Positions 5,109-39,100 of a stretch of DNA of 64,000 nucleotides are shown here, piece by piece (position 1 is the stretch's first letter; the number at the start of each line of letters is the position of its first letter). The translations under genes and the position numbers were made by a program. The DNA is from Bacteroidaceae bacterium (GTDB taxonomy: Bacteria > Bacteroidota > Bacteroidia > Bacteroidales > Bacteroidaceae), in contig JAFXQT010000090.1 in NCBI GenBank assembly GCA_017526905.1, positions 6,927 to 70,926 on the forward strand, in the 5' to 3' direction. The notes below the pieces were generated by a model. That model had not been told where the DNA came from. It ran no database searches and saw nothing but the letters and a program-made list of their open reading frames with translations.

Positions 5109-5139
5109 ATAAGAGATAAGAGATAAGAGATGAAGATAG
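5108..5139. repeat. tandem heptamer array AGATAAG
   Basis: GATAAGAGATAAGAGATAAGAGATGAAGATAG. It contains the first ATG of the PHP ORF. Confidence 0.9.
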
Positions 5140-6901: not shown

Positions 6902-8362
6902 TCAGCCCGGGAAGTGTATGGTAAATCGTGTGAGACGGTCAGTAGCATCCGTATGGAGGCTGAAGGTGCAGCCGTGGCCCGACAGAATGTCGCGTATGAG
7001 CAGCAGCCCAATTCCCTGCCCATTGGGTTTGGTGGAGAAGAAAGGGGTGAAGAGGTTCTGCGACACCGCCTCGGAGATGCCCTGGCCGTTGTCCGTGACC
7101 ACCAGCGTTTGGGCGGATGTAGCGATGCTGACCCAACCACCTTCTCGGTTACCTATGCTCTCCACACTGTTCTTGACAATATTGACCAGTACTTGCTGGA
7201 ACAGGACAGAATCCAAACGCACGGGAATGGCATCGTCCGTCAGGTTGAATTCCAACCGAACCCTATTGGAAAGGCAGAGGTTTTCCAGGAACATACGGCA
7301 GGCCTCCACCTCCTCGCTCAAGTCGCACAGTTGCAGCTGGGGAGGTGGCATCTTGACAACCTCAGCAAAACGGGTGACGAAGGCCGACATGGAGCGCAGG
7401 CGGGAAGTGAATGACGAACGTTCTTTTAATGACGAATGACGAGTGACGAATGATGAATTGTTTTCTAATGACGAATGACGAGTGACGAATGACGAATGAG
7501 AGTTACCTTCAGGATTGGAAAGTAACTTTGATTCGTCATTCCGAGCGAAGCGAGATTCGTCATTCGTCATTCCTTCTGATTCGTCATTTCGAGCGAAGCG
7601 AGATTCGTCATTCGTCATTCCCCCTGATTCGTCATTCGTCATTCCCCCTGATTCGTCATTCGTCATTCCTTGTTCCTCAAGCGCGCCTACGATGCCCGCC
7701 ACGCTATTGTTCACCTCATGAGCTATCATCCGGATTACACGCTCATAAGCCTCCTTCTCTGCCAGCCTTACCTCCGAAGTCAGCGACTCTATCAAGTAGA
7801 AAGGATGTTGGTAGCCACGGTCTGTGAATGACAAGTGGCTGATGCGGTAGATACCCGGTTCGCCCATCAGTCGCATGGTGGTTTCATTGCCAATAGGCAA
7901 ACGCTCCATTGCTTCGCGGATGAGCGGCGTCAGCATCTGTTTGGCCGCCGGATTCATTGAGGTGATATGGCCGTCCAAGTCGCACTGCACTACGCCCATA
8001 GGCGAGGCTTCGATTAGCAGACTGAGGAAGTTGTACTGCTCTACCAGGCTCAGGTGTTCGCTGCGCAAGCGGGCCAGCAGGGCATTGAACGTGCGCACAA
8101 TCACATCCGTTTCGTATTGCCCTGAAGGTGCCAGCCGTGTGCTCAGGTCAAGGTCACGTACCAGCTCCATCCCCCCAATCAGTGTGTCATAGGGCTTCAA
8201 AGTCCGCCTATAGAAATAAAACAGGTAGAAAAGCAGCAGCACAACGAAGCACTCGATTGCGTAGAACAAGCCCGGCCGGCTGCCAAACGACGCGTAAAGT
8301 GCCGCACCGCCCAGCAGCAATATAAACAACACGAGAATGAGGAAGTAGTGAAAGAGCTTCAT
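6902..8362 (-). CDS. sensor histidine kinase (two N-terminal TM helices, PAS-like, HisKA, HATPase_c) with a repeat-encoded insertion
   Basis: The N-terminus has two hydrophobic helices separated by a very short loop. It has an H-box (RMIAHEVNNSVAGIVGAL), an N-box (VLVNIVKNSVESI), G1 (DNGQGI) and G2 (GQGIGL). About 88 aa between the H-box helix and the next helix (MTNDESGGMTNDESGG...SFVTRHSSL) are encoded by repeat arrays at 7407-7669. Confidence 0.8.
   Translation of the reverse strand: MKLFHYFLILVLFILLLGGAALYASFGSRPGLFYAIECFVVLLLFYLFYFYRRTLKPYDTLIGGMELVRDLDLSTRLAPSGQYETDVIVRTFNALLARLRSEHLSLVEQYNFLSLLIEASPMGVVQCDLDGHITSMNPAAKQMLTPLIREAMERLPIGNETTMRLMGEPGIYRISHLSFTDRGYQHPFYLIESLTSEVRLAEKEAYERVIRMIAHEVNNSVAGIVGALEEQGMTNDESGGMTNDESGGMTNDESRFARNDESEGMTNDESRFARNDESKLLSNPEGNSHSSFVTRHSSLENNSSFVTRHSSLKERSSFTSRLRSMSAFVTRFAEVVKMPPPQLQLCDLSEEVEACRMFLENLCLSNRVRLEFNLTDDAIPVRLDSVLFQQVLVNIVKNSVESIGNREGGWVSIATSAQTLVVTDNGQGISEAVSQNLFTPFFSTKPNGQGIGLLLIRDILSGHGCTFSLHTDATDRLTRFTIHFPG
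7407..7669. repeat. inverted pair of AATGACG-type arrays inside the histidine kinase CDS
   Basis: The left arm (7407-7500) has AATGACG units. The right arm (7531-7669) has the reverse complement TTCGTCA, organised in 24- and 48-nt super-units that include CCGAGCGAAGCGAG. The centre is the hairpin AGTTAC...GTAACT. Confidence 0.9.
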
Positions 8363-8364
8363 TT

Positions 8365-8519
8365 ATGATGAATGACTAATGACTAATGACGAATGACGAA
8401 TGACTAATGACGAATGACGAAGGCTGCGATTAAGCGAGCAGAGAGTCAAACTTGTTTGAGCTATCCCGAGCGTGAGCAGGCTCGACCGAAGGTCAATGAC
8501 GAATGACGAGTGATGACGG
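8365..8519. repeat. AATGACK heptamer arrays flanking a 72-nt unique core (regulator/kinase intergenic)
   Basis: Arrays at 8365-8421 and 8494-8519, in the same orientation. Confidence 0.85.
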
Positions 8520-8522
8520 CTG

Positions 8523-9962
8523 CTACAGCCCGTGCTTCTCGATCTTCCTGTACAACGCACCGCGGCTGATACCCAGTTCCTTGGCCACGAGCGAGAGATT
8601 ACCGGCATTTTTCTGAATGGAGGTGGCTATAGCTGCACGCTCCAAATCGTCCAACGTGGCCCCCTCCCGTCCCCCGGCCGAGGGGGCCGGGGTATGGGAG
8701 GGGGCCTCGGGTGCTCCGGGAATGACTCTTGGATTGAAGTCTTTTCCCTCTCCCATCAGCAGCGTCCTTTCAACGAGGTTCTTCAGTTCGCGTATATTAC
8801 CGCTGAGAGGTAGTGTTTGCAAATAGGCTATGGCATCTGCTCCGACTACCGGCATAGGCAGCCTGTTTGTCGTGCAGGCCTGCTGCAGGAAATAGTCAAC
8901 AAGCAACGGGATGTCCCCCCGCCTCTCGCGCAAGGGCGGCAGATGCAGGCTGATGGTGTTGATGCGGTAGAAGAGGTCCTCGCGGAAGGTGTGCTCCGCC
9001 ACCATCGTCCGCAGGTCGGCATTGGTCGCGCAGACGACGCGGACGTCGGTGCGGCGTGTGCGGCTGTCGCCCAGCACCTCGTAAGTCTGATCCTGCAACA
9101 CGCGCAACAGCTTCACCTGACAGGCCAGGTCCAGTTCGCCTATCTCGTCCAAGAAGATCGTCCCGCCGTTGGCCAGTTCGAAGCGGCCCACACGGTCCTC
9201 CTTGGCGTCGGTGAACGACCCTTTCTTGTGGCCGAACATCTCGCTCTCGAAGAGCGACGAGGAGATGCCGCCGAGGTTCACCTTCACGAAGGGACCGTTG
9301 GCACGCCGGCTCTGACGGTGTATGGCCTCGGCTATCAGCTCCTTGCCCGTGCCGCTCTCACCCGTGATGAGGACGGGGGCGTTGGTGGGTGCGATGCGGG
9401 CAATGGTGGTGTAGATAGAGGCGAGGGAGGGCAGGGGAACACCCGAGCAAGCCCCCTCCCGTCCCCCCCGAGGGGAAGCCCCCTCTAAATCCCCCCGAGG
9501 GGGGACTTGCGTTTCCATTGGGATTCCAGAGGATATGGTCGCCCCCCCTCGGGGGGGACGGGAGGGGGCCGGGGGACGGGAGTGGGCCTCGGGGGCTACC
9601 TTTATCGCTGTTTCCACCCGCTCCACCAGTACGCCATTGTCCCACGGTTTCGTGATGAAGTCGAAGGCACCGGCGCGCATACCCTGTACGGCCAGGTCGA
9701 TGGAGCCCCAGGCAGTCATCAGGATGCACGGGACGTCGGGGCGGAACACCTTGACTTGCTTCAGCAGCGTAAGGCCTTCCTCACCGTCGGTGGACATATT
9801 GTAATTCATGTCCATCAGCACCAACTCCACGGCCGGCGTGTTGCGGACGATCCGTATGGCTTCCTTGGGGCCCTCAGCCAAGGCCACCTCATATCCGTTG
9901 CGCTCCAGTATGAGCTTCAGCGAGAGCCGGATGTTCTTATCGTCATCAACTACGAGAATCAT
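8523..9962 (-). CDS. sigma54-dependent (NtrC-family) response regulator
   Basis: REC domain (MILVVDDDKNIR...LVLMDMNY...ILMTAW). AAA+ sigma54-interaction domain (VLITGESGTGKE, ESEMFGHKKGSFTDA, GGTIFLDEIGEL). Fis-type HTH (NLSLVAKELGISRGALYRKIEKHGL). There are two GC-rich in-frame insertions: one in the REC-AAA+ linker and one before the HTH. Confidence 0.9.
   Translation of the reverse strand: MILVVDDDKNIRLSLKLILERNGYEVALAEGPKEAIRIVRNTPAVELVLMDMNYNMSTDGEEGLTLLKQVKVFRPDVPCILMTAWGSIDLAVQGMRAGAFDFITKPWDNGVLVERVETAIKVAPEAHSRPPAPSRPPRGGATISSGIPMETQVPPRGDLEGASPRGGREGACSGVPLPSLASIYTTIARIAPTNAPVLITGESGTGKELIAEAIHRQSRRANGPFVKVNLGGISSSLFESEMFGHKKGSFTDAKEDRVGRFELANGGTIFLDEIGELDLACQVKLLRVLQDQTYEVLGDSRTRRTDVRVVCATNADLRTMVAEHTFREDLFYRINTISLHLPPLRERRGDIPLLVDYFLQQACTTNRLPMPVVGADAIAYLQTLPLSGNIRELKNLVERTLLMGEGKDFNPRVIPGAPEAPSHTPAPSAGGREGATLDDLERAAIATSIQKNAGNLSLVAKELGISRGALYRKIEKHGL
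8658..8706. repeat. 49-bp GC-rich imperfect palindrome inside the response-regulator CDS
   Basis: GGCCCCCTCCCGTCCCCCGGCC / GGCCGGGGTATGGGAGGGGGCC. It is translated in-frame as APSHTPAPSAGGREGA just before the HTH. Confidence 0.8.
9451..9569. repeat. 119-bp GC-rich element inside the response-regulator CDS (contains a 99-bp unit shared with 11981-12080)
   Basis: Terminal inverted repeats GCCCCCTCCCGTCCCCCCCG / CGGGGGGGACGGGAGGGGGC. The internal 9470-9568 differs from 11981-12080 by one substitution and one C in a C-run, by my manual alignment. Confidence 0.85.
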
Positions 9963-11913: not shown

Positions 11914-12118
11914 TTTGTTTAATTGTCATTTAATCTGTTTACAATTCTTGAAAGGTATTTGCTCCCTCCCTCGCTCGGCTGAGGGGAAGCCCCCTCTAAA
12001 TCCCCCCGAGGGGGGACTTGCGTTTCCATTGGGAATCCAGAGGATATGGTCGCCCCCCCCTCGGGGGGGACGGGAGGGGGCTTCCCCTACAGGGAGGGCG
12101 GGGGGAGAGTCCGATTCT
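11842..12118. repeat. composite GC-rich palindromic element (type a) at the TolC/HlyD junction with a nested 100-bp unit
   Basis: Inner arm: GGACTCTCCCCCCCGCCCCTCCCtatgAGGGAGGGGAG (11842-11883). Outer arm: GGGAGGGCGGGGGGAGAGTCCG (to 12118). The nested unit is 11981-12080. The HlyD ATG (11913) lies inside the element and the TolC stop (12087) lies in the outer arm. Confidence 0.8.
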
Positions 12119-13574
12119 CAATAAAGTCCCATAGTGCGATGCTGCGCAACTGGTAGTAGTAGAGCCAGTAGTTGTAGAGTTGCGCTATGCGGCTGAGGCG
12201 TGCCTGGTCCTTGGCTGTCTGTGCGTCGGAGAGCTCGAGAGTCGAGATGCTGCCGATCTTGAAGGTCTCTACGTTCGTGTGATAGCGGCGCTGGGCGATG
12301 GTGTCGGCCTCGATGGCTATGCGCAGCTGCTCGGCCTGATTGTTGAACTGCTCGGTCAGTACGAAGATGTCCTGACGGAACTCCTGTGCCTGCTTGCGCA
12401 GCTGCCCACGCACAATCTCGCGGTTGCTCTCGGCCAGCCGCCGCTGTCCCTTGCGCTTGCCCCAGTCGAGGATAGGCACAGTGAAGCCTACCTGCACCAC
12501 CTCCTTGCTCAGCAGGTCGCGATAGGCGCCGCCCACCGAGGTGCCCGTACCCGTGTAGCCCAGTTGGGCATAGAGGTTGATGCTCTGTCGGTTGGCACGC
12601 GCCACAGCCACAGAGTAGTCGGCCTCCAACTGCCGCCGACGTATGGTCGTGGCATGAGCGTTGTTCTCGAGGGCATGGCTGAGAACGTCGTCATAGTTCA
12701 GCCGCACATCAGGGACGCCTTCTGGCACGATGGGCACGATATCCGCCTCCACATCCAGGAACGAGCGCAGGGCGAACTGGCGGGCTTGGCAGGTGCTCTC
12801 GCTGTTGGTCAGGGCGCTGCGAGCCGTGAGCATATCCAGTCGCAGCTGCAGCACATCGTTCTCGCTGATGCTGCCCATCTGGCGCTTGGCCAGAGCCACC
12901 TCGTAGAGCTTCTCGGCTGTCTGCAGATTCTGACGTGCAATGCCCACCTGCTCGATGGCCATCAGGAGATTGAAGAAATGGTTGATAGCCTGCATCGCCA
13001 CCTCCTCCGTCTCGGTGAGGAAGCGCGCCTGTGCCTCGCGGTAGCGAAGGGGTTCCAACCGCCGGCTCCACTTTACGTGGTTCACGCCGAAGAGCGGCTG
13101 CGAGAGGGTTACGGCAACGGGCAGCGACATAAGTTGGTTAAGCCCACCCCCAGCCCCTCCCTGGGGAGTGGAGTTTTGAAACTGATGAAGGAAGTCGAGT
13201 GATGATTCAATGGTGAGCGTGCCGCCCGTGGGCCATATCTTCTGCGTCACATAGAGCGAACCGTTCAGGCCTAAGTAGTCGTTGCGCACGAACGAGACGC
13301 CGCCGTCGGCCTGCTGATAGCTGGTATAGCGCTTGTTGTAGCTGGGCAGGGTGGCCGATAATGACACTTCCGGCAGCAGGTCGGCACGGTAGCTGCGCCA
13401 CTGCCAGTAGGCCGACTGCAGTTCGCCCCGCGCCACGGCAGCCTCCACGCTCTGGTTGCGCGCCATGGTGATACATTCATCGAGGCTCAGCCGCAGCGTG
13501 TCCTGCGCCAAGGTCGTGAGCCCTGCACAGGCAGTGAATGAGGCGATGATGATAATTCTTTTGACCATTTTCAT
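12087..13574 (-). CDS. TolC-family outer membrane efflux protein
   Basis: 495-aa ORF with a signal peptide (MKMVKRIIIIASFTACAGLTTLAQ). The two-repeat TolC-like sequence has the typical start LSLDECITMARNQSVEAAVARGEL. The C-terminal residues RTLPPPSL are encoded by a GC-rich repeat arm. Confidence 0.85.
   Translation of the reverse strand: MKMVKRIIIIASFTACAGLTTLAQDTLRLSLDECITMARNQSVEAAVARGELQSAYWQWRSYRADLLPEVSLSATLPSYNKRYTSYQQADGGVSFVRNDYLGLNGSLYVTQKIWPTGGTLTIESSLDFLHQFQNSTPQGGAGGGLNQLMSLPVAVTLSQPLFGVNHVKWSRRLEPLRYREAQARFLTETEEVAMQAINHFFNLLMAIEQVGIARQNLQTAEKLYEVALAKRQMGSISENDVLQLRLDMLTARSALTNSESTCQARQFALRSFLDVEADIVPIVPEGVPDVRLNYDDVLSHALENNAHATTIRRRQLEADYSVAVARANRQSINLYAQLGYTGTGTSVGGAYRDLLSKEVVQVGFTVPILDWGKRKGQRRLAESNREIVRGQLRKQAQEFRQDIFVLTEQFNNQAEQLRIAIEADTIAQRRYHTNVETFKIGSISTLELSDAQTAKDQARLSRIAQLYNYWLYYYQLRSIALWDFIENRTLPPPSL
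13142..13172. repeat. solo type-b arm inside the TolC CDS
   Basis: GCCCACCCCCAGCCCCTCCCTGGGGAGTGGAG, translated as TPQGGAGGGL. Confidence 0.75.
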
Positions 13575-13654: not shown

Positions 13655-15046
13655 CTATGAATCCTGCCGCAGGGCGTCCACCGGCCGCTTGTTTACGGCT
13701 CGCCATATAGGTAGAGCGATGGCGAGGCTCACTACGCAGAGCATGATTACGTATTGGATGACACAGATGACGAGGTAGTGTATCCAGAAGATTTCCACCC
13801 AGTTGCGCTCCCGTCCCGTGCCGCTCATGCTTAGGCCATCGGAGAGGTCCATGTTGATGGCGAACTGGAACCAGATGAGCTGGCCGACGATGCAGGCCAG
13901 CAGGGTCAGCAACGCTGCCTCACCCCATACCATCCAGAAGATGTCGCGCCGCTTGGCGCCGAAGCTGCGCATGATGCCGATGTCCTCCGTGCGCTTGCGC
14001 AGTTGCAGCCAGAAGGTGCCCAGGGTGCCGAGGACGACGTTCAGCAGGAAGAGGGCAAGGAGGATGCCGAGGAGGGTGTTGGTGAGGTTGTAGTCTCTGT
14101 TGCCACTCCATGAAGACAGCCAATCTTCATAGGTCTGCACAGAGACGAGGATGCGGTCGCCGGCTTTTCTAAGCGCTTGGGATGCGGGACTTGTAAGCTG
14201 GTTCAGAAATGCCTGTGCATCAACTTCGGGATGTAGGCGAATGAGCATCTGCGGGGTTGCATACTCTTCGATTATAGGAGTCAGAATGGAATAGGCATAG
14301 CGATCATTCTGCTGCAAGCGGAAATCTTCGACAACACCCGCGATGGTGTAGCGGCTGACGATGACCGGCCCGCCTTGCTCCTGCAGCGCACGGTCGCTGA
14401 AGTCCCATTCCACTATGCGGCGCCCCACGACTTGGTCGGTATCGAATAGCGCCTGTGCCAGACTGCGGGTGATGACCACGCCGTCCAAAGGACAATCCTC
14501 GGAGAGTTCCTTTGCCGAAGGACTGCCCTCAATGGGCGTCAGACCCTGCGTCTCGAAGAACTGCTCATGTAGCAGAAACCCCTGCATGTAGGCTCCGCAC
14601 CTGCGCGTGGAATCCGTCTCGGAAGCATTGGAAATGATGTTGTAGGTACCTAGGCCAATGATGTGCCTGGCAAAGCCTGCATACTGCACCTCGGGCAGAG
14701 CACGGATCTGGTCGCGAAGGGCGTAGAGGGAGGACCGGCCCTCGACCTGAAGCCCATCCAGCCCACCCCCAGCCCCTCCCTGGGGAGGGGAGCTTGTTTC
14801 CGCTTGCCCACTGCCAGTTTGGACTCCCCTCCCCAGGGAGGGGTCGGGGGTGGGCTGTTGGATTCCCGTCTGCCCCACCAACAAGTGTTCCCGCTCAAAC
14901 TCTCCGGCGGGACTACAGAAATAACGGTCGTAGGTGGTTACGACGAAGTGGTCAATGAAGTAGAAACTGAGGACGGTGATGAGGATAATCTCGGCAAAGA
15001 CCCAACCGTTCTGACGGCGGTGGGACCAGAGGCTCTTGCGTATCAT
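13655..15046 (-). CDS. ABC transporter permease, FtsX/MacB type (B-type paralog, B3)
   Basis: FtsX-like C-terminal 3-TM block with GAKRRDIFWMV. N-terminal TM plus a large periplasmic domain. I chose the start at 15046 (MIRKSLW) because it forms an ATGA overlap with the upstream stop. The ORF is open to 15094. Confidence 0.8.
   Translation of the reverse strand: MIRKSLWSHRRQNGWVFAEIILITVLSFYFIDHFVVTTYDRYFCSPAGEFEREHLLVGQTGIQQPTPDPSLGRGVQTGSGQAETSSPPQGGAGGGLDGLQVEGRSSLYALRDQIRALPEVQYAGFARHIIGLGTYNIISNASETDSTRRCGAYMQGFLLHEQFFETQGLTPIEGSPSAKELSEDCPLDGVVITRSLAQALFDTDQVVGRRIVEWDFSDRALQEQGGPVIVSRYTIAGVVEDFRLQQNDRYAYSILTPIIEEYATPQMLIRLHPEVDAQAFLNQLTSPASQALRKAGDRILVSVQTYEDWLSSWSGNRDYNLTNTLLGILLALFLLNVVLGTLGTFWLQLRKRTEDIGIMRSFGAKRRDIFWMVWGEAALLTLLACIVGQLIWFQFAINMDLSDGLSMSGTGRERNWVEIFWIHYLVICVIQYVIMLCVVSLAIALPIWRAVNKRPVDALRQDS
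14761..14855. repeat. complete 95-bp type-b palindromic element inside permease B3 CDS
   Basis: GCCCACCCCCAGCCCCTCCCTGGGGAGGGGAG - 32 nt - CTCCCCTCCCCAGGGAGGGGTCGGGGGTGGGC. In-frame, translated as PTPDPSLGRGVQTGSGQAETSSPPQGGAGGGL. Confidence 0.9.
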
Positions 15047-16539
15047 TTCTTCTGATTTAACGATTCGACAATAGGTTTGCGTAGTGAGGTCCATGACGGT
15101 ATGAGGGCGACCATGAGGTTGAGGACGACGCAGCAGAGGAAGACGATGAGGAAGAGCGTGGGCGTGACGAACATCTTGGGGTCCAACGTGATATCACCTG
15201 TGAGGTTGCCTTCGCGGAGGATGAACGCCTGGAACAAGGCCGTATGACGGACGGCAAGGTAGAACAGCCAAGAGAGCACCCAACCCACGAGACCTCCGCA
15301 GCACGTTAGGACGAGGTTCTCGCGAATGACCTCGCGCAGCAGCGTGCGCCGCTTGGCTCCGAAGGCCTTGCGGATACCCATCTCTGCCCGCCGTGCTTCC
15401 ATGCGGTTGCTAACGAGACCGCTGAGGTTCAGGGCTGGCAGCAGCAGGAAGATAAGCATCAGGATGGCTGGCGGCATCAGGTTCTTGGCCTTGTCGGAAG
15501 TGGACTCATCATCGGAGTGGAAGAAGGAGAAGCACACGAAGAAATGTGACTTAGCATCCAGGGTGAAGTGCACCGGCTCACCTTCAACTGAACTCTGTGC
15601 CGCCTCATAGCGTCGGCACAGCGGCTCCAGCTCCTTCAGGAAGTCATCGCGCGAATAGCCCTTCTTCAGCAGCACACGCACGCTGAGGTTCCCTTGATAG
15701 TTGCTAGGATTAGATTCGGTATAGCTCAGACTCTTGCCAAGGCTGGGGACATAGATCTCTGCGTATGAAGTATCCATCAATGGGCTGGTTCTCTTGATGA
15801 CACCGATGATGCGGTAGGGGACGGAGTTGATGTAAATAAAAGAGGAGGAGCCCACCCCTAACCCCTCCCCAAGGGAGGGGGATTCGTTTCCGCTGGTATT
15901 TCTCTTTTGTTTTTTTTCTGCCACTTTGGACTCCCCTCCCTTGGGGAGGGGATGGGGGTGGGCCGATTCAAGGTGGGCCACCCCTATCTTTTCCAACAAC
16001 TTATCCGTCACCACACACACCTGCTCGCCATTGCGGAACTCCTGTTCGTTGAAAGGGCGGCCTTCGAGGAATTGGAAGTCATAGAGTTGAAAGAAGCGGT
16101 GGTCGCAGAATATGGCCTTCACGGAGTTTTGGGGGTTATTGGATACTGCCGATATGGAATCAACTGTAATCTCCCGATAAGGGTCCACTCGCAACCCTGT
16201 TGCCACCTCCACGCACTCCAGCTTACTGAACAACTCATCGACGGCCAAGGTGCTGCAGCCTGAGTAGAGTGGATCGCCTATCTCGCTGTCTTTGTATTGC
16301 AAGGCGGTGACATACAACGTGCGGTCGCGATGCTTCTCCGGGTAGATATTCGCCATCTTGACATTAAGCAGGATGGCCACTACCATAGCCGAGGCAATGG
16401 CCACCGCCGTGCCCGCGACGTAGATGGCGGAGAACAACTTGTCCTCACGGATGAGGGAGAAGGCGTGGGAGACCCACCCCCAACCCCTCCCTGTGAGGGA
16501 GGGGAGTAGATAGTCTTTAACCCAAAATGATATGTTCAT
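15043..16539 (-). CDS. ABC transporter permease, FtsX/MacB type (A-type paralog, A3)
   Basis: N-terminal TM motif LFSAIYVAGTAVAIA. MacB-like periplasmic domain. C-terminal FtsX block (FGAKRRTLLREVIRENL). It contains a complete 114-bp GC-rich element in-frame. The ATG lies inside an intercistronic element. Confidence 0.8.
   Translation of the reverse strand: MNISFWVKDYLLPSLTGRGWGWVSHAFSLIREDKLFSAIYVAGTAVAIASAMVVAILLNVKMANIYPEKHRDRTLYVTALQYKDSEIGDPLYSGCSTLAVDELFSKLECVEVATGLRVDPYREITVDSISAVSNNPQNSVKAIFCDHRFFQLYDFQFLEGRPFNEQEFRNGEQVCVVTDKLLEKIGVAHLESAHPHPLPKGGESKVAEKKQKRNTSGNESPSLGEGLGVGSSSFIYINSVPYRIIGVIKRTSPLMDTSYAEIYVPSLGKSLSYTESNPSNYQGNLSVRVLLKKGYSRDDFLKELEPLCRRYEAAQSSVEGEPVHFTLDAKSHFFVCFSFFHSDDESTSDKAKNLMPPAILMLIFLLLPALNLSGLVSNRMEARRAEMGIRKAFGAKRRTLLREVIRENLVLTCCGGLVGWVLSWLFYLAVRHTALFQAFILREGNLTGDITLDPKMFVTPTLFLIVFLCCVVLNLMVALIPSWTSLRKPIVESLNQKK
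15850..15963. repeat. complete 114-bp type-b palindromic element inside permease A3 CDS
   Basis: GCCCACCCCTAACCCCTCCCCAAGGGAGGGGG - 51 nt (including T8) - CTCCCCTCCCTTGGGGAGGGGATGGGGGTGGGC. In-frame, translated as HPHPLPKGGESKVAEKKQKRNTSGNESPSLGEGLGVG. Confidence 0.9.
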
Positions 16540-16616
16540 ATAATAATCTTTTTGCTAATCTGCACTTGAAAGTTACCACTCCCCTCCCTTTAGGGAGGGG
16601 CCGGGGGTGAGTCTGA
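16471..16616. repeat. composite type-b element filling the ATPase/permease-A3 junction
   Basis: Arms at 16471-16509 and 16576-16616 are inverted copies, ~80% identical by eye. The A3 ATG (16539) lies in the spacer. The ATPase stop (16617) abuts the outer arm. Confidence 0.8.
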
Positions 16617-17435
16617 TTACTGAATCTGCCGTCCATCCAAGAACTTAATAATCCTGTCCGTCTGCTGGGCCTGCTTCTCGTTGTGCGTCACCATGACAAT
16701 GGTGCGGCCGTCCTCTTTGTTCAGCTTATGCAGCAGCTCCATAATCTCGGCACCCATCTTCGAGTCGAGGTTACCTGTGGGCTCGTCGGCGAGGAGGATC
16801 TCGGGGTTACCGATGATGGCGCGGGCGATGGCTACGCGCTGGCACTGACCACCTGAGAGTTGCGTTGGGCGGTGCTTCATTCGGTGTGAGAGGCCTACGC
16901 GGGCTATGACTTCCTTGGCCAAGCGTGTGCGCTCGCTGCGGCCTACGCCACGATAGATGAGGGGCAGCATCACGTTGTCCAGGACGTTCAGCGTCGGGAT
17001 GAGGTGGAAGCTCTGGAAGACGAAGCCCAGCGTGCGGTTGCGGATCTCCGCCAGGCGGTTGTCGCTCATGTGCGGGTCGATGCGCTGTCCGCACAGTTCT
17101 ATCTCGCCGCTGGTGGGTTCGTCCAGCAAGCCCATGATGTTCAGCAGGGTCGATTTGCCGCAGCCCGAAGGTCCCATGATGCTCAGGAACTCACCCTTCT
17201 GCACTTCGATGTTCACGTTCTCCAACGCCTGTGTCTCCACTTCGTCGGTGCGGTAGATTTTGTTGATCTCAGTGAGCTTAATGGAAGACCCTCCTCCCGA
17301 GGACTCTCCCCCCGCCCTCCCTTGTAGGGAGGGAGCAGATACCATTTGACCGTTAGCGTTCTGCTGGGTTGTCGAATTCGCTTGTTTGTTTGGTTGGTTA
17401 CTTACTTGGTTGTCGGAATTAACTTGAGTATTCAT
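16617..17435 (-). CDS. ABC transporter ATP-binding protein (MacB/LolD-like)
   Basis: Walker A ([12 protein letters not shown]), signature ([14 protein letters not shown]), Walker B ([11 protein letters not shown]) and H-loop (VTHN). A ~50-aa Q/N-rich N-terminal extension ending in [13 protein letters not shown] is repeat-derived. Confidence 0.9.
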
Positions 17436-17539
17436 ACTTTTAGTATTTATTGGTTATTAACTTGTTCCTAATTTACTTCTATTCTTGAAAGGTGACCACT
17501 CTCCTCCCTACAAGGGAGGGGCTGGGGGGGGGAGGGTCC
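17301..17539. repeat. composite type-a element filling the fused-permease/ATPase junction
   Basis: Arms: GGACTCTCCCCCCGCCCTCCCttgtAGGGAGGGAGC (17301-17336) and its inverted copy with complementary loop acaa (17496-17539). The ATPase ATG (17435) lies in the spacer. The fused-permease stop (17541) abuts the outer arm. Confidence 0.85.
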
Positions 17540-20060: not shown

Positions 20061-21387
20061 CTTTCAAAGCCTCGTTGATATTCGTTCTCGTAATGCGCCA
20101 CGCCGGAATAGCCGTTCCGATGAGCACGGTGAGTAATATAATAAGGTACACGCACGCGGAGATGACGAGGAAATGGGGCCAAAAGTGGTCGGGCCAGGTC
20201 ATGTCCGAGGGGATGTTGACGAGTCGCGGAACATAGAGCTTTTCGCTGTAGGTGAAGCCGTTCTCGAGGGTGGAGTAACCGCTGTGGGCGTAGTTCAGGT
20301 AAATGATGAGCCCGACGGCAACAGCGGCGGTTGCGAGGGCGGCGTTGCGCAGTAACATCTCCCAGAGCAGACGCAGTTTCGTAGCTCCGAAGGCGCGGCG
20401 GACGCCACACTCCTCTGTGCGGCGCTTGGCGTGAAACCACACGGTGCCGATGACGGCCAGGCAGAGGTTGACGAGGAAGAAGAGGGCGAGGGCCAGACTG
20501 CGGTTTACCTCCTGTGTGCGGCCGTCGTCGAGCTCCAATTGCTGTAGGTGGTCGTCGTAGGTCATGAGGCGGCTGACACGGGTGTAGTTGGTGCGTGCGT
20601 TGCGGATGAGGTCGCGGCCGTGCTCCTCCACGAAGCGTCGGGCGTCCACGCCATGCTTCAGACGGATGACGAAGCGGCAGCGGGTGGTGGTCAGGTTTTC
20701 GGGTTGGAAGATGAGCGAACGCATGTTGTAGCCCAACGACTTGCGGATGTCCTCCACCACGCCTGCCACCGTCACCTCAGACTCTGGGTTGTAGCAGAAC
20801 GTGAGGCGACGCCCCACCACATCTGCGGAGCCAAACAGCGCCATGGCACTGGTACGTGTCAGCACCACCTTCTGCTCCGACCTTTTGATACACGAGAGCT
20901 CCTCGGCCGACGGGCTGCCAGGCAGGGGCTGCAGGCCGTAGGTCTCGAAGAAGTGGGAGTCGGGGATGAAGGCGAGCCAGCCCATATAAAGCGTATCGGC
21001 CTCGTGGCGACATGGGGAATAAGTCTCGTTGGTATGACCGATAGACCAAAGGTCCTGGTCGTAGAGATAGGCTGATTCCACGCCCTCCACGGTCGTGAGC
21101 TGGCGCGTCATCTGCTGCCGCCGTTCCTCGGTAATGTTGTACGGATCGCTCATCTCCTCTTCCGATGCCTCCTCTGATGGGCTCACGGTACATTCGCCAT
21201 AGAGCAGGCGGTTGGTGTCGTAGCCAAGGGGCAGACTGCGATAGTAGAGGTTGACGACGGCGGGGTCGAAGACCACCCAGGCAACGACGGTAATGATGAC
21301 GAGCTCGAGGAAAAGGACGGACTCTCCCCCCGCCCTCCCTGTTAGGGAGGGAGCGGAATGTATTTGACTGGCTGTATTCATTTTCAT
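20053..21387 (-). CDS. ABC transporter permease, FtsX/MacB type (B-type paralog, B1)
   Basis: B-type N-terminal TM (LFLELVIITVVAWVVFDP) and C-terminal FtsX block (FGATKLRLLWEM ... AWRITRTNINEALKDE). The first 23 codons (MKMNTASQIHSAPSLTGRAGGES) lie in a GC-rich element. Confidence 0.8.
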   Translation of the reverse strand: MKMNTASQIHSAPSLTGRAGGESVLFLELVIITVVAWVVFDPAVVNLYYRSLPLGYDTNRLLYGECTVSPSEEASEEEMSDPYNITEERRQQMTRQLTTVEGVESAYLYDQDLWSIGHTNETYSPCRHEADTLYMGWLAFIPDSHFFETYGLQPLPGSPSAEELSCIKRSEQKVVLTRTSAMALFGSADVVGRRLTFCYNPESEVTVAGVVEDIRKSLGYNMRSLIFQPENLTTTRCRFVIRLKHGVDARRFVEEHGRDLIRNARTNYTRVSRLMTYDDHLQQLELDDGRTQEVNRSLALALFFLVNLCLAVIGTVWFHAKRRTEECGVRRAFGATKLRLLWEMLLRNAALATAAVAVGLIIYLNYAHSGYSTLENGFTYSEKLYVPRLVNIPSDMTWPDHFWPHFLVISACVYLIILLTVLIGTAIPAWRITRTNINEALKDE

Positions 21388-21480
21388 TTATGTTTTATTG
21401 TTCATTTAATCTTTTTAAGTGTTTACCATCCTTGAAGGTATTTGCTCCCTCCCTAACAGGGAGGGCGGGGGGAGAGTCCG
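21319..21480. repeat. composite type-a element filling the permease-A1/B1 junction
   Basis: Arms: GGACTCTCCCCCCGCCCTCCCtgttAGGGAGGGAGC (21319-21354) and GCTCCCTCCCTaacaGGGAGGGCGGGGGGAGAGTCCG (21443-21480). They are near-perfect inverted repeats. The B1 ATG (21387) lies in the spacer. The A1 stop is at 21485. Confidence 0.9.
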
Positions 21481-21484
21481 TTTT

Positions 21485-22825
21485 TTATTGCTTTTCCATC
21501 ATTGATTGGACAATAGGTTTACGCAAGCACCACCACGCAGGCACGACGGCGGCGAGGAGGTTGAGGAGGAGAATGGCTGCAAAGGCGCCGAGGAAGAGTG
21601 CGGGAGCAAAGAGCATCTCACCCGAGACGAGGGGTGCTGAGCTGAGGGTGCTGTTATCGAAGAACATACCGAGAATTTCACGGCGGAAACCATAGATGGC
21701 CAGCCAAGCGAGTACAAGTCCGATGATGCCTCCGATGGTTGTCATCACCAGATTCTCCCACACCACCTGATGTAAAAGCGTGCTGCGACGTGCTCCGAAG
21801 GTCTTGCGCACAGCCATCTCTGCCGACCGTCGCTCCATGCGTCCCGCCACAATGCCGCAGAGGTTCAACGCCGGCACGAAGAGCAACACGAAGAGGATGC
21901 CCGCGTAGTGCCGAAAGAGCTGCCAACCCGAAGGCACCTCGAACTCGCCATCGCGGTTCTCTGCGCGCAGCACGTGCATCGGGTGCGTCGCCATATTCCT
22001 TGTCAGTACCATCTTCATTTTCACTCCTTCGCCGAAACCGAAATTCGAGCAGATGTCGGGATTCGTTTGCTGAATACGTGCCGCCACTCCATCGAGTTCA
22101 GTCTTCAGCGCTTGTAAGTGCTCGTTGTCTTTCACTGTAGCCACGATGGAGAATATGCCTTGGTAAGGCGAGCCGCCACAGAAATCCACGAGGTTATAGG
22201 GTACGATGAAATCGGCATAGCTGTCGGGCGTGAGCTGACTGCCGCTGCGCACCACGCCCACCACACGCGCCTCGTTGAAGTTTTCCAAGCCGACCATTTG
22301 CCCCACGGCGTCCACGCCCTTGCCGAACAGCCGCTCAGCCAGCGCATCGGAGATGACACAGACTGACTCATGCCCATCCACTTCTTGTTTCGTGAAGGGC
22401 CGTCCGCTCACGAAGTCGTACTCGTAGATCTTGAAGAAGTCGGCGTTGGTCCAATTCCTGACGACGTCGAAGTACTCATTGTCGAACTTAGCATATTCGT
22501 GGCTGCGGCTTTCAGACTTTCCCGTGCCAGCGGCGAGCAGCGTGGGGGCGCAGTACTCGATGTTCGGGCTGGCTGCGAACCACTCCTCGAACGCCTTCGG
22601 GCTAAAGCCTGTCTTTCCCATCCCGCCGTTCTCGGCCTCGATGTAAATGCCCTCGAAATAGACCGTCCGCGCCCGGTTCCTCTCAGGGTAGATGGGCGCC
22701 AACTTGATGTAATACACTACGGCCATCACCATCGTGAAGGCAATGGCCAAGGCCGTTCCCACGATGTATATGCCGGAGAAAAGCCGTTCCTCGCGCAGCA
22801 GGGCGAGGGCTTGGCGAAAATACAT
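21485..22825 (-). CDS. ABC transporter permease, FtsX/MacB type (A-type paralog, A1)
   Basis: A-type motif LFSGIYIVGTALAIAF and FtsX block FGARRSTLLHQVVWENL. I chose the start at 22825 (MYFRQALALL). The ORF is open to 22906, but that extension (MNSERMNSNK...) is encoded by a CATTCTTTC repeat array. Confidence 0.75.
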   Translation of the reverse strand: MYFRQALALLREERLFSGIYIVGTALAIAFTMVMAVVYYIKLAPIYPERNRARTVYFEGIYIEAENGGMGKTGFSPKAFEEWFAASPNIEYCAPTLLAAGTGKSESRSHEYAKFDNEYFDVVRNWTNADFFKIYEYDFVSGRPFTKQEVDGHESVCVISDALAERLFGKGVDAVGQMVGLENFNEARVVGVVRSGSQLTPDSYADFIVPYNLVDFCGGSPYQGIFSIVATVKDNEHLQALKTELDGVAARIQQTNPDICSNFGFGEGVKMKMVLTRNMATHPMHVLRAENRDGEFEVPSGWQLFRHYAGILFVLLFVPALNLCGIVAGRMERRSAEMAVRKTFGARRSTLLHQVVWENLVMTTIGGIIGLVLAWLAIYGFRREILGMFFDNSTLSSAPLVSGEMLFAPALFLGAFAAILLLNLLAAVVPAWWCLRKPIVQSMMEKQ

Positions 22826-36106: not shown

Positions 36107-39100
36107 ATGATAAAGGATAACGGACTATACAGACACGACATGGAGCACGACGCCTGCGGCGTAGGAATGGTCGTAAATATCCATGGTGGCAAGAGCCACG
36201 AACTGGTGGATCAGGCGCTGCGGGTGCTGGAGCACATGCAGCACCGCGGTGCCGAGGGCGCCGACAACAAGACGGGCGACGGTGCCGGCATCATGATTCA
36301 GATACCCCATGAGTTCATACTCCTGCAGGGCATCCCTGTTCCCGAGAAAGGACATTATGGCACGGGGCTGGTCTTTCTGCCTAAGGACGAAAGGGCACAA
36401 GACGCTCTGCTTGCAATCATCAGCGAAGAGACGGAACGCGAAGGGCTGAAGCTCGCCCATGTGCGCACCGTTCCGACAAATCCCGACTGTCTCGGCACCA
36501 CCGCCCTCAGCAGCGAACCTTCCATCAAGCAGCTGTTCATAACAGGAGAGAGCGACGAACCGACCGACAGCCTCGCGCGTACATTATATATTATACGCAA
36601 GCACGTGGAGCGACGTGTTCGCGAACTCGCAACACAGAGTCCCGCCTACGACGCATTCTACATCTGCTCGCTGAGCAACACAAACATCATCTATAAAGGC
36701 ATGCTGACCAGCATACAGCTGCGACAGTATTTCACGGACCTGCAAAGTCCTTATCTGACAAGCGGACTGGCGCTGGTGCACTCACGTTTCAGCACAAACA
36801 CCTTCCCCACGTGGGCACTGGCCCAGCCCTTCCGTCTGTTGGCACACAACGGCGAAATCAACACCATCCGCGGCAACCGCCTCTGGATGCAGGCGCGAGA
36901 GAGTGTGCTGCACTCCACGGTCTTGGGCGAGGCGTCGGACATAGCACCCATCATCGAACCGGACATGAGCGATTCGGCCTCGCTGGACAATGTGCTGGAA
37001 TACCTCGTCATGGCCGGCCTATCGCTACCGCACGCCATGAGCGTGCTCGTGCCGGAGTCGTTCAACGACAAGAACCCCATCAGCCCTGAGCTGAAGGCCT
37101 TCTATGAATACCACTCCATTCTGATGGAGCCGTGGGACGGTCCGGCGGCCCTGCTTTTCTCCGACGGACGTTACGCCGGCGGTATGCTCGACCGCAACGG
37201 CCTGCGCCCGGCACGCTACGCCATCACAAAGAACGGCATGATGATCGTGGCATCGGAGGTTGGCGTGATAGATTTCGATCCTGGCAAGATAGCCGAGAAA
37301 GGGCGCCTGCAACCAGGCAAGATACTGCTCATCGACACCCAAGAGGGCCGTATCTACTACGACGGCGAGGTGAAGCGACAGCTGGCGGCTGCGCACCCCT
37401 ACGGGCAGTGGCTCTCAACCAACCGCGTCCAGCTGGAAAAGCTGAAGAGCGGCCGTAAGGTGGAAAACGGGCTCCCCGACTTGCAACAGAAGGAGGCGCT
37501 CTTCGGCTACGGTGCCGAAGACATAGACGCCACCATCATACCCATGGCGACGAAGGGCCAGGAGCCCACGGCATCGATGGGCAACGACACGCCGCTGGCT
37601 GTACTGAGCGAGCGCCCGCAGGTGTTCTTCAACTATTTCCGCCAGCAGTTTGCGCAGGTGACAAACCCGGCCATTGACTCCATTCGCGAGGAACTTGTGA
37701 TGAGCCTCACGGAATATATCGGGCGCGTAGGAACGGGCATATTGAGCCCCGACGAGACGAACTGTAAGATGGTGCGTCTGCCCCACCCCATCCTGACCGG
37801 CACGCAGCTGGACATGCTATGCAACATCGGCTACAAGGGGTTCAAGACAATTAAGTTGACATTAGCCCACCCCCAGCCCCTCCCCAAGGGAGGGGAGACT
37901 GATTGGTCTCTGGCTGGTGAAAACCTTAGGATAGCATTGGACAAACTCTGCAAGGATGCAGAACAGGCAGTGGATGATGGTTATAATTACATTATTCTGA
38001 CGGACAAGGAATGCCCCTCCGCCGGGGAGGGGATGAGATGGGCTTACATCCCCTCGCTCCTGGCCGTCTCGGCCGTCCACCACTATCTCATCCGCGCCGG
38101 CAAGCGTGTGCAGACGGCGCTCATCGTAGAGTCCGGCGAGATCCGCGAGACGATGCACGCTGCCCTGCTGCTGGGCTACGGAGCCTCGGCCCTGTGCCCC
38201 TATATGGTTTACGCCATTCTCGACGACCTGGTCAGGCGCGGAAAGATTCAGGAGGACTACGCCAACGCCGAGGCCAACTACATCAAGGCTGTGAAAAAAG
38301 GACTGTTCAAGATCATGGCCAAGATGGGCATCTCGACCATCCGCAGCTATCGCGGTGCCAAGATCTTCGAGGCTGTAGGCCTGAGCGAAGAGGTGCTGAG
38401 AACCTACTTCGGCACGGAAGTGAGCACGATTGGTGGTGCCGGCCTCGAGAAGATTGCCAGCGATGCCATCCGCAGGAAGGAAGGGAATGAAGCGCTAAAG
38501 GACAACGGCCAGTTCCACTGGCGGCGCGATGGCATCCGGCATGCCTGGAACCCCGAGACGATAGCACGCCTGCAGCTGGCCTGCCGCACAGGGTCGTACG
38601 AGAAGTTCAAGGAGTGGGCGCGGCTGGTCGACGAGAAGCAGCAGCCCATCTTCCTCCGCGACTTGTTGGCTCCTGCTACGACAGAAACGGGAAAGGCAGG
38701 TGCCATCCCCCTTGACGAGGTCGAACCAGAGGAGGAAATCATGAAGCACTTCGTGGCTGGCGCCATGAGCTTCGGTGCCCTGAGCAAAGAGGCCCACGAG
38801 GCCATATGCCTGGCTATGAACAAGATCGGCGGACGTTCCAACACCGGCGAGGGCGGTGAGGATCCGTCACGCTTCCACGCCACCATCGACGGCATCAGCC
38901 TCAACAGCAAGACGAAGCAAGTGGCCAGCGGGCGCTTCGGCGTCACGACGGAATATCTCGCTAACGCCGAGGAGATACAGATCAAGGTGGCCCAGGGCGC
39001 CAAGCCTGGCGAAGGCGGTCAGCTGCCGGGCTTCAAGGTGAATGAGGTCATTGCCCGCACGCGCCACAGCATACCCGGCATATCGCTCATCTCGCCACCG

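What the first reader, a model, noticed from the sequence alone, without database searches (positions are those of the whole stretch)
14761..15963. Two complete palindromic elements (95 and 114 bp) sit in-frame inside the periplasmic domains of permeases B3 and A3
14761-14855 and 15850-15963 each have both type-b arms and a related spacer (...GTTTCCGCT...GCCAsTTTGGAC...). Both lie wholly within long ORFs that continue with family-conserved sequence on each side. They add 32 and 38 residues rich in P, G, S and L (PTPDPSLGRGVQTGSGQAETSSPPQGGAGGGL and HPHPLPKGGESKVAEKKQKRNTSGNESPSLGEGLGVG). The arms contain essentially only C/G-rich codons and have no stop codon in the frames used, which may explain why insertions are tolerated. 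The 114-bp copy also contains an A8/T8 run (15910-15917) inside the CDS, which is a potential slippage site. A solo arm is likewise translated inside tolC (13142-13172).
Basis: seen in the sequence. Interest (0 to 1): 0.65.

Follow-up and report, generated by a model that had tools for sequence, protein, structure and literature searches.

The report
Palindromic repeats translated inside efflux-pump genes
Two small GC-rich hairpin repeats have landed in-frame inside two efflux-pump permease genes of an uncultured rumen Prevotella-like bacterium and are read through as floppy 30-38-residue loops, a Bacteroidota counterpart of the "selfish DNA inside genes" known from Rickettsia.

Summary
14761-14855 and 15850-15963 are near-perfect palindromes (31-34-nt arms, 94% complementary). 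Both lie inside intact MacB-type permease ORFs on the minus strand, and the quoted peptides are correct.

They are insertions. Close orthologues in rumen Prevotellaceae MAGs and metagenomes exist with and without them. More distant orthologues and the in-window paralogues lack them. Both genes are under purifying selection (dN/dS 0.2-0.35).

The B3 insert is a low-confidence coil between two confidently modelled elements of the periplasmic domain. The A3 insert maps to a MacB periplasmic-domain loop.

The same loops carry other element variants in other strains. In the window, arms or whole elements are also translated in TolC, GltB, a sigma54 regulator and several N-termini.

In a metagenome sample, 22 of 48 complete elements in contigs below 60% GC sit inside long ORFs. 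All 10 ORFs tested have real Pfam domains.

I found no target-site duplication, no transposase nearby, no Rfam match and no family-wide stop-codon avoidance.

Best reading: REPIN-like, non-autonomous hairpin elements tolerated in permissive loops. They behave like Rickettsia palindromic elements but are unrelated in sequence. The mobilisation mechanism and actual translation remain untested.

The parts
14761..14855 (-). Element e1 (95 bp, type-b arms 14761-14792 and 14824-14855). It is translated in B3 as PTPDPSLGRGVQTGSGQAETSSPPQGGAGGGL (residues 81-112).
   Evidence: Inverted repeat I10. Translation. No stop codon in any of six frames. mRNA-strand hairpin of -80.3 kcal/mol, z = -7.0. Absent from empty alleles L002/L004, P0128, P0134, P0137, P0141, P0148.
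15850..15963 (-). Element e2 (114 bp, arms 15850-15880 and 15933-15963, T8 run 15910-15917). It is translated in A3 as AHPHPLPKGGESKVAEKKQKRNTSGNESPSLGEGLGVG (residues 193-230).
   Evidence: Inverted repeat I19. Translation. Hairpin of -69.7 kcal/mol, z = -8.1. 98.2% identical copy at the same site in L001/L005. Absent from P0003 and most orthologues.
13655..15094 (-). Host gene B3, a MacB-type (FtsX + MacB_PCD) permease. The database version of the protein starts at M17 (about 15046).
   Evidence: Pfam. P0121 is 100% identical and 463 aa long. AF2 model has pLDDT 81.7 and pTM 0.74, and Foldseek matches MacB/LolCDE at E = 2e-11. dN/dS is 0.23-0.35.
15043..16539 (-). Host gene A3, a MacB-type permease that overlaps the start of B3.
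   Evidence: Pfam. PDB profile hits to MacB. Foldseek hits to MacB. dN/dS is 0.20-0.25.
13142..13176 (-). Solo type-b arm translated in the TolC-like outer-membrane factor (12087-13574) as ...STPQGGAGGGL...
   Evidence: Direct-repeat family D14. In L001/L005 the same place holds only a shorter G-rich remnant (SGMGGG).
16471..16506 (-). Arm inside the annotated N-terminus of A3 (LTGRGWGWV). The N-termini of orthologues vary, with or without such arms.
   Evidence: D14. Alignment A3.
37865..37897 (+). Solo type-b arm translated in glutamate synthase large subunit (LAHPQPLPKGGET). A degenerate hairpin at 38014-38032 is also translated (CPSAGEGMRW).
9470..9568 (-). Complete 99-nt palindromic element of another family. 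It sits in-frame in the receiver/AAA+ linker of the sigma54 response regulator. Its intergenic twin lies at 11981-12079.
   Evidence: D16, 91% identity. Translation. Domain limits. The same peptide occupies the B3 loop in P0136/P0144.
21312..21486 (-). Complete type-a element (43-nt arms, 95% complementary) spanning the A1/B1 junction. It includes B1's annotated start codon.
   Evidence: I2. B1 translation MKMNTASQIHSAPSLTGRAGGES.

Best explanation
e1 and e2 are copies of a family of small, non-autonomous, GC-rich palindromic repeats.

Anatomy. Each arm is a C-rich tail (GCCCACCCCNN) followed by its own mini-hairpin (CCCCTCCC-loop-GGGAGGGG). Two arms in inverted orientation flank a 30-50-nt spacer, the same layout as a REPIN.

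What happened (shown). Copies entered the permease genes A3 and B3 in one lineage of rumen Prevotellaceae. They persist because three conditions are met:
1. The G/C-only arms cannot encode stop codons.
2. The spacer happens to be open in the frame used.
3. The net length change is a multiple of three, and the position is a surface loop of the periplasmic domain that accepts a disordered P/G/S-rich segment.

The genes stay intact and under purifying selection. By inference, the element is transcribed and translated as part of the protein, as Rickettsia palindromic elements are.

Decay and turnover (shown). Elements decay to solo arms and short G-rich remnants, as in TolC. At the same loops, different family members occur in different strains.

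Not shown. How the elements move is unknown. I infer a hairpin-dependent, duplication-free route: single-strand transposition by a trans-acting HUH/RAYT-like enzyme, or recombination between arms. I found no evidence that the encoded peptide has a function.
For: - Repeat nature: the arms recur at least 15 times between 5.0 and 21.5 kb and again in gltB, against 0.02 expected by chance.
- Insertion polarity: presence/absence among 72-96% identical orthologues, and absence from 55-66% identical orthologues and from paralogues.
- Independent assemblies carry the same e2 insertion at 98.2% identity.
- Function retained: ORFs are intact and dN/dS is 0.20-0.35. Every element variant seen at the B3 loop keeps the reading frame.
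- Permissive position: in the B3 model the insert has pLDDT below 50 for residues 88-112 and is coil, between strand 71-78 and helix 113-131, which have pLDDT above 90. The A3 insert falls between the helix and strand aligned to E. coli MacB ~395-435 and has pLDDT below 50 in the weaker A3 model.
- Generality: 22 of 48 complete elements in contigs below 60% GC lie in ORFs with at least 75 codons on each side. In 10 of 10 tested, Pfam domains flank or span the insert, including three elements in one aminotransferase gene.
- The hairpin is the conserved feature: the unconstrained arm triplets are perfectly complementary in 79 of 125 elements, against 1.6% by chance. Predicted RNA hairpins are -70 to -80 kcal/mol.
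- No target-site duplication.
- Decay series in TolC.
Against: - Translation through the elements is inferred from frame conservation only. I have no proteomic or transcript data.
- The junctions are not clean. Flanking codons differ between filled and empty alleles, so the original insertion event cannot be reconstructed.
- No transposase of any kind lies in the 64-kb window. A crude RAYT search of 0.98 Mb of fetched DNA found nothing.
- The arms lack the GTAG/CGTC head typical of REPs.
- A hairpin of -70 to -80 kcal/mol inside an mRNA might be expected to be costly, and nothing here explains why it is tolerated.
- The sharp identity peak around e2 (94-98% against 61-86% in neighbouring 100-nt blocks) shows recombination or constraint that a purely neutral picture does not predict.
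Confidence: 0.8

Rival explanations
1. There was one ancient insertion per loop, followed by in-situ turnover. After a first element landed, its arms served as homology for gene conversion or recombination with other family members, plus paired indels. That produced the many variants and reading frames now seen at the same site. On this view there is no insertional hotspot. This is a rival for the hotspot reading only, not for the insertion itself.
For: - At the B3 loop, the window's element and the L001/L005 element share the left boundary within 5 nt and the AGCGGAAAC spacer motif. They differ by a 17-nt spacer indel and by flank indels that together restore the frame.
- The e2 region is a 94-98% identity island in an otherwise 61-93% identical gene, which indicates recombination.
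- A collapsed GGGGTGG|CCCACC remnant lies just 5' of e2.
Against: - At least four clearly different families occupy the B3 loop: type-b, the PSPLPLKGED type, the APSRPPRGG type also found in the regulator gene, and the P0125 type.
- A different family occupies the A3 loop in P0008/P0030.
- Their spacers are unrelated, and empty alleles are interspersed among close relatives.
Confidence: 0.4
2. The inserts are kept because they are useful. One version: they act as flexible linkers that tune the periplasmic domain or A3/B3 pairing. Another version works at the RNA level: the very stable hairpins act as RNase III sites, ribosome pause sites or G-quadruplex switches that set the relative expression of genes in the operon.
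For: - e2 is more conserved than its host gene (98.2% against 61-94%).
- Hairpin complementarity is maintained across 125 divergent copies.
- Hairpin energies are extreme.
- Each outer arm contains four G-runs (GGGAGGGGNNNGGGGTGGG), which fits the canonical quadruplex motif. This is read from the sequence; folding was not tested.
- Among intragenic copies the PTPxPS frame is used 15 times, the HPxPLP frame 6 times and the poly-proline frame once.
Against: - Close orthologues do without the inserts.
- Different strains carry unrelated peptides at the same loop.
- The inserts are predicted to be disordered.
- The same elements are scattered through unrelated cytoplasmic enzymes.
- Elements decay to remnants.
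- Spacers show no selection for open frames.
Confidence: 0.12
3. The inserts are an artefact or sit in dead genes. They would be assembly chimeras at repeats, or the permease genes would be pseudogenes whose ORFs survive only because the repeat lacks stop codons.
For: MAG and metagenome assemblies can collapse or mis-join at repeats. Stop-free arms artificially lengthen ORFs at several N-termini in the window.
Against: - The same e2 insertion appears in the window, two goat MAGs and five further protein clusters from ENA, JGI and NCBI.
- 250-380 codons of conserved sequence continue downstream in the same frame.
- dN/dS is 0.2-0.35.
- The fold is predicted with confidence on both sides of the B3 insert.
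Confidence: 0.02

Closest known systems
Rickettsia palindromic elements (RPE; Ogata et al. 2000, as summarised in PMC10969869)
   Same: Both are short (about 100-150 bp) palindromic repeats in many copies. A large share is inserted in-frame into unrelated, still-functional genes, adding a peptide at positions compatible with the fold. Both are polymorphic between related genomes.
   Different: - There is no sequence relationship, and the phylum is different: free-living rumen Bacteroidota rather than reduced intracellular Alphaproteobacteria.
- These elements are G/C-rich with nested hairpins in each arm, and they encode P/G/S/L-rich low-complexity peptides. From memory, RPEs are AT-rich.
- Several families compete for the same loops.
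REP / REPIN elements mobilised by RAYT transposases (PMC3116915, PMC3733652)
   Same: The architecture matches. Two imperfectly palindromic units lie in inverted orientation around a short spacer and form one long hairpin. Singlet units also occur, and there is no target-site duplication. P. fluorescens REP cores (GGGAGGGGGCTTGCCCCCTCCC) look similar in style.
   Different: - REPINs are almost exclusively extragenic: 14 of 1,067 16-mer occurrences overlap genes in SBW25 (PMC3116915). Here 46% of sampled copies are intragenic.
- There is no GTAG/CGTC head.
- No RAYT gene was found in the DNA available.
Intragenic MITEs of other bacteria (Coxiella QMITE, enterobacterial ERIC/RU, cyanobacterial MITEs; PMC5896051, PMC2759123, PMC10969869)
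   Same: Both are non-autonomous inverted-repeat elements that occasionally create in-frame fusions or add peptides to host proteins.
   Different: - MITEs normally have target-site duplications and a parent IS. Neither was seen here.
- In a survey of 183,232 genomes, about 90% of conserved MITEs are intergenic (PMC11602168).
Repeat-derived linker inserts in Mesorhizobium aldehyde oxidase
   Same: A rhizobial contig (L084) carries a type-b-armed element in-frame in the 2Fe-2S/molybdopterin linker. Cultured Mesorhizobium orthologues range from 915 to 1009 aa because of repeat-like inserts at the same linker.
   Different: Most Mesorhizobium inserts belong to another repeat family (AAPHPPAGTFSPYSDGEKG...). 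I did not analyse them at the DNA level.

Membership tests
Rickettsia palindromic elements (RPE) | Short palindromic repeat present in many copies, a substantial share of them inserted in-frame in functional protein-coding genes. | tested here: met
Rickettsia palindromic elements (RPE) | Sequence homology to the RPE-1 to RPE-10 consensus sequences; confined to Rickettsia. | not testable with these tools
   No RPE consensus sequences were available. The host is Prevotellaceae and the elements are G/C-rich, so homology is very unlikely. This is a functional analogue, not a member.
Rickettsia palindromic elements (RPE) | The element is transcribed and translated with the host protein. | not testable with these tools
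   Only indirect evidence: frame conservation in all variants and purifying selection on the host genes.
REPIN / REP-RAYT system | Two REP hairpins in inverted orientation around a short spacer, forming one long hairpin; REP singlets also present. | tested here: met
   Solo arms lie at 13142-13176, 16471-16506 and 37865-37897.
REPIN / REP-RAYT system | Conserved GTAG or CGTC tetranucleotide head next to the hairpin. | tested here: not met
   The arms begin GCCCACCCC / end GGGGTGGGC. No GTAG or CGTC lies at either end in the window copies or in 125 metagenomic copies.
REPIN / REP-RAYT system | A cognate single-copy RAYT (Y1/HUH transposase) gene, usually flanked by the REPs. | tested here: inconclusive
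   None among the Pfam-scanned ORFs of the window. tblastn with an E. coli RayT sequence recalled from memory gave nothing below E = 0.3 in 0.98 Mb. The rest of the genome was not available.
REPIN / REP-RAYT system | Almost exclusively extragenic location. | tested here: not met
   22 of 48 elements are inside long ORFs, against about 1% reported for P. fluorescens (PMC3116915).
MITE (IS-derived miniature inverted-repeat transposable element) | Terminal inverted repeats flanked by a target-site duplication. | tested here: not met
   Inverted arms are present. Flank direct-repeat lengths are at chance level: 0 nt in 90, 1 nt in 32 and 2 nt or more in 6 of 128.
MITE (IS-derived miniature inverted-repeat transposable element) | A parent insertion sequence sharing the same terminal repeats. 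| not tested
   No IS was seen in the window. No genome-wide search was possible.
MacB-type (type VII ABC) permease, for the host genes | FtsX transmembrane domain plus a MacB-like periplasmic core domain between TM1 and TM2. | tested here: met
   Pfam PF02687 and PF12704 in both genes. B3 model matches MacB/LolCDE at Foldseek E = 2e-11, TM 0.49. A3 profile hits MacB chains at E = 3e-11. Adjacent ABC ATPase, HlyD-type adaptor and OEP genes are present.

The most novel reading that the evidence does not exclude
These are not a Prevotella oddity. They would belong to a widespread, cross-phylum class of G/C-armed, REPIN-like hairpin elements. Arms matching the same pattern occur in at least 120 metagenome contigs of 42-72% GC, including a rhizobial one. 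Because the arms cannot encode stop codons, such elements would routinely colonise coding sequence and act as a general source of disordered linkers, loop hypervariability, new N-termini and gene fusions. Their spread would depend on an as yet unidentified hairpin- or quadruplex-recognising mobilisation system that leaves no target duplication.
Probability: 0.3. Interest if true: 0.75.

Novelty: new variant of a known kind. Interest (0 to 1): 0.55.

Why it matters
In-frame "selfish DNA" in genes has been treated as a curiosity of Rickettsia and a few pathogens. Here the same behaviour appears in abundant, free-living gut and rumen Bacteroidota, at a high rate: nearly half of the sampled copies are intragenic, and one enzyme gene carries three.

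This has practical consequences:
- Gene callers and homology tools will mis-set start codons, split Pfam domains and inflate protein-length variation in these genomes.
- Strain-level comparisons will see hypervariable loops that are really repeat turnover.

It also offers a natural experiment. One can ask which loops of MacB-type pumps, TolC, GltB and many enzymes tolerate 30-40 disordered residues, and how ribosomes and RNases cope with hairpins of -70 to -80 kcal/mol inside coding regions.

Tried and rejected
- Rfam: no family at gathering score in the whole window. Sub-threshold hits over the elements are generic miRNA-precursor hairpins.
- BLAST of e2 against PLSDB plasmids: no match, possibly because of the low-complexity filter.
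- Target-site duplication or target motif: none among 128 copies.
- Family-wide avoidance of stop codons in spacers: rejected for contigs below 60% GC. Observed open frames were 2.1-2.3 of six, against 2.0-2.5 in shuffles. e1's six open frames are an exception, not a design feature.
- RAYT or other transposase: none in the window and none in fetched loci using a query recalled from memory. This is weak negative evidence.
- Phase variation at the A8/T8 run: orthologous copies have A8 or A7C, both in-frame. No support, but read-level data were not available.
- First A3 structure model (33 close orthologues): too poor (pLDDT 54) to place the insert in 3D. I used profile alignment to MacB instead.
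- Clean empty-site reconstruction: failed, because the flanks differ between filled and empty alleles.
- Literature searches: no description of this family in Prevotella or Bacteroidota. This is absence from an open-access subset only.
Full report
**Observation**

The region holds two nearly perfect palindromes.
- 14759-14792 pairs with 14824-14857: 34 nt, 94% complementary, 31 nt apart.
- 15850-15880 pairs with 15933-15963: 31 nt, 94% complementary, 52 nt apart.

The core motif CCCCTCCC-NN-GGGGAGGGG gives 8 matches in the window against 0.02 expected from shuffles. A slightly looser scan finds 18 such mini-hairpins, 15 of them between 5.0 and 21.5 kb.

Both elements lie within long minus-strand ORFs: 13655-15094 (B3, 479 aa) and 15043-16539 (A3, 498 aa). 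Each ORF has MacB_PCD and FtsX domains. They sit in an operon-like block with an ABC ATPase, three further permease ORFs, a HlyD-type adaptor and an OEP/TolC-type gene.

**Are they insertions? Yes.**

The in-window paralogues have gaps at both places, although at 30-34% identity that is only indicative. Orthologues decide the question.

For A3, 33 sequences of 55-95% identity were aligned.
- The same peptide sits at the same place in P0001, P0002, P0004, P0005 and P0025.
- It is absent from P0003, which is 95% identical over the aligned columns, and from most other orthologues.
- Total lengths run from 423 to 505 aa.

Genome loci identify the lineage as uncultured rumen Prevotellaceae/Bacteroidaceae: goat and cattle MAGs RGIG2642, RGIG2663, RGIG3507, RUG11694 and RUG367. 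In L001 and L005 the A3 element is 112/114 identical to e2.

For B3:
- e1 recurs in the same frame in P0122 and P0124.
- L002, L004, P0128, P0134, P0137, P0141 and P0148 have an empty site (...GQTGIKDFSPNSSSVGEASLYALRD...).
- No element is present in the 58-72% identical orthologues P0145 and P0150-P0154.
- The length difference between filled and empty alleles is 90 nt in B3 and 38 codons in A3.

So the empty state is ancestral and the inserts are derived.

The host genes are alive. dN/dS between the window and four MAGs is 0.20-0.25 for A3 and 0.23-0.35 for B3.

**Where in the protein**

A 127-sequence alignment gave a good B3 model (pLDDT 81.7, pTM 0.74). It matches MacB, LolCDE and HrtB structures (Foldseek E = 2e-11).

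The insert is the only long low-confidence stretch inside the periplasmic domain. Residues 88-112 have pLDDT below 50 and no secondary structure. It lies between strand 71-78, which follows TM1, and helix 113-131. Both neighbours have pLDDT above 90.

The first A3 model was poor (pLDDT 54), although there too residues 188-231 are below 50. A profile of the A3 family aligns to MacB chains. It places the insert between the segments aligned to E. coli MacB '...vvvldsntrrqlfphkadvvg' and 'evilvgnmparviGva'. From my memory of Crow et al. 2017, that segment belongs to the Sabre subdomain of the periplasmic domain.

**The loops are hotspots, and the phenomenon is general**

At the B3 loop other strains carry several different inserts:
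- an e2-like element read in another frame (HHQPLPKGGEPPEVENNSVANTSGNGFPSLGEGLGVGQ; L001, L005, P0123, P0126, P0127, P0130, P0135);
- a third family (PSPLPLKGEDVHLPE...SPSEGERGGGL);
- a fourth (P0125);
- a fifth (P0136, P0144), whose peptide APSRPPRGGATISSGIP... is the translation of the 99-nt element the window carries in its sigma54 regulator gene (9470-9568) and, intergenically, at 11981-12079.

A second B3 site near residue 300 carries an e2-like element in P0130, P0133 and P0135. The A3 loop carries an unrelated element in P0008 and P0030.

In TolC, the window's solo arm corresponds to a shorter G-rich remnant in L001/L005. Those loci in turn have a 48-residue element-derived insert that the window lacks.

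Inside the window, arms or whole elements are also translated in glutamate synthase (37865-37897, 38014-38032), in the regulator, and in the annotated N-termini of A3, B1, the ATPase and the adaptor.

**Census outside the window**

It also found two IMG/VR contigs.

Although not required by the pattern, nearly all copies have the inner halves of both mini-hairpins. The three free positions in each arm are perfectly complementary to their partner in 79 of 125 distinct copies, against 1.6% by chance. The first 16 inner nucleotides match at 13 of 16 on average. The long hairpin itself is therefore what is conserved.

In contigs below 60% GC, 22 of 48 judged copies lie in ORFs that extend at least 75 codons on each side, against 61% for random points. 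I tested ten of these ORFs against Pfam, and all are ordinary genes with domains flanking or spanning the insert:
- GH35 beta-galactosidase
- a metallophosphoesterase
- methionine synthase
- a GT2 glycosyltransferase
- a class I/II aminotransferase carrying three elements
- an AAA_25 protein
- a THUMP-like protein
- a MiaB-like radical-SAM enzyme
- an S41 peptidase
- SufE

For comparison, about 90% of conserved MITEs are intergenic (PMC11602168). Only 14 of 1,067 REP 16-mer occurrences overlap genes in P. fluorescens (PMC3116915).

One contig above 60% GC (L084) is rhizobial. Its aldehyde oxidase carries a type-b-armed element in the 2Fe-2S/molybdopterin linker. Cultured Mesorhizobium orthologues vary from 915 to 1009 aa through other repeat-like inserts at the same linker.

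**Mechanism: what is shown and what is inferred**

Shown:
- The arms are almost pure G/C and so cannot contain stop codons. e1 is open in all six frames and e2 in four.
- Across the family, the spacers are no more stop-free than shuffled controls in contigs below 60% GC. Survival in genes is therefore a filter on open frame, 3n length and a permissive loop. It is not a design feature of the family.
- There is no target-site duplication and no flanking target motif.
- No Rfam family matches.
- No transposase lies in the window.
- The mRNA-strand hairpins are predicted at -80.3 and -69.7 kcal/mol, with z-scores of -7 and -8.
- The e2 region is a 94-98% identity island in a gene otherwise 61-93% identical to L001. 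A collapsed GGGGTGG|CCCACC remnant lies just upstream. This points to recombinational exchange of this segment between strains.

Inferred:
- The elements are translated, on the basis of frame conservation only.
- They are mobilised without duplication, by a hairpin-recognising single-strand transposase of the RAYT/IS200 kind or by recombination between arms.
- Repeated occupancy of the same loops reflects permissiveness, in-situ replacement, or both.
- The under-use of the poly-proline frame among intragenic copies (15 PTPxPS, 6 HPxPLP, 1 PPP) suggests selection against ribosome-stalling peptides. The sample is small and contains some duplicates.

**Comparison with known systems**

In behaviour the closest system is the Rickettsia palindromic elements. 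They are short palindromes, many of them inserted in-frame in functional genes (PMC10969869).

In architecture the closest is the REPIN: two inverted REP hairpins, singlets, and no duplication (PMC3116915).

The family fails REPIN membership on two features, the GTAG/CGTC head and extragenic location. It fails MITE membership on target-site duplication. It cannot be an RPE by taxon and composition.

Six full-text searches found no paper describing it in Prevotella or Bacteroidota. I therefore class it as a new variant of a known kind.

**Verdict**

The most interesting part lies beyond the given coordinates: the scale and breadth of in-frame colonisation by this element class. Translation, mobilisation and any cost or benefit remain untested.

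Noticed in passing
window 9470-9568 (twin at 11981-12079); also 8657-8683: A 99-nt palindromic element of another family lies in-frame in the receiver/AAA+ linker of the sigma54 response regulator (8523-9962, minus strand). A 91% identical copy is intergenic. A further hairpin is translated just before the HTH domain. The same element-encoded peptide occupies the B3 loop in orthologues P0136/P0144.
   Followed up: partly
window 37865-37897 and 38014-38032: Glutamate synthase large subunit (36032-40669, plus strand) contains a translated solo type-b arm (LAHPQPLPKGGET). About 120 nt downstream, a degenerate hairpin is also translated (CPSAGEGMRW). The two flank genuine GltB sequence.
   Followed up: partly
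window 21312-21486; also 16471-16618 and 17301-17532: Type-a elements straddle gene junctions in the permease operon and contain the annotated start codons. The peptide M..SSQIHS(A/T)PSL.GR.GG recurs at the N-termini of B1 and of many A3 and B3 orthologues. Either the elements supply start codons or the ORFs are over-extended through stop-free arms.
   Followed up: partly
window 24941-25019 within ORF 23271-26108 (minus strand): A fused carA-carB (GATase plus CPSase large chain) ORF is joined by an 8-nt tandem repeat translated as SPQNLITLKPQDLKTLKPQNLNK. This suggests a gene fusion made by reading through simple intergenic repeats.
   Followed up: partly
window 17541-20060 (minus strand): The second permease pair is a single 839-aa ORF (A2 fused to B2), whereas pairs 1 and 3 are separate genes. 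No clear arm remnant is visible at the junction (about 18800).
   Followed up: partly
window 4966-5134, 7409-7680, 8357-8524, 27828-27874, 29876-29907, 31668-31699, 43103-43215, 48067-48190, 60280-60398: Intergenic DNA is full of short tandem repeats: GAATGAC heptamers, GATAAGA heptamers, TTTAC-rich runs, a 22-mer x5 and a 12-mer x8. Some are in inverted orientation between distant loci.
   Followed up: no
L060 515-1453: A rumen metagenome contig encodes a class I/II aminotransferase with three complete type-b elements in one reading frame, all read as PTPxPS...PLPSGGxGGG.
   Followed up: partly
L084 3576-3668; proteins P0241-P0360: A Rhizobiaceae/Mesorhizobium-like aldehyde oxidase carries a type-b-armed element in its 2Fe-2S/Mo-domain linker. 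Orthologues in cultured Mesorhizobium range from 915 to 1009 aa because of other repeat-like inserts (AAPHPPAGTFSPYSDGEKG...RGEGKGEGQ) at the same linker.
   Followed up: partly
L007 37-139 and L008 3496-3601: Two IMG/VR viral contigs (64-67% GC) contain complete elements with the same arm pattern. Their flanks are themselves inverted repeats (GCGGGCTG / CAGCCCGC).
   Followed up: no
window 23271-46712: The window holds a dense nitrogen-assimilation cluster: carAB-like, asnB, glmS, a GATase gene, pyrG, amtB, gltB, gltD, dapF and type III glutamine synthetase. A second CPSase large-chain paralogue lies at 60496-63873.
   Followed up: no
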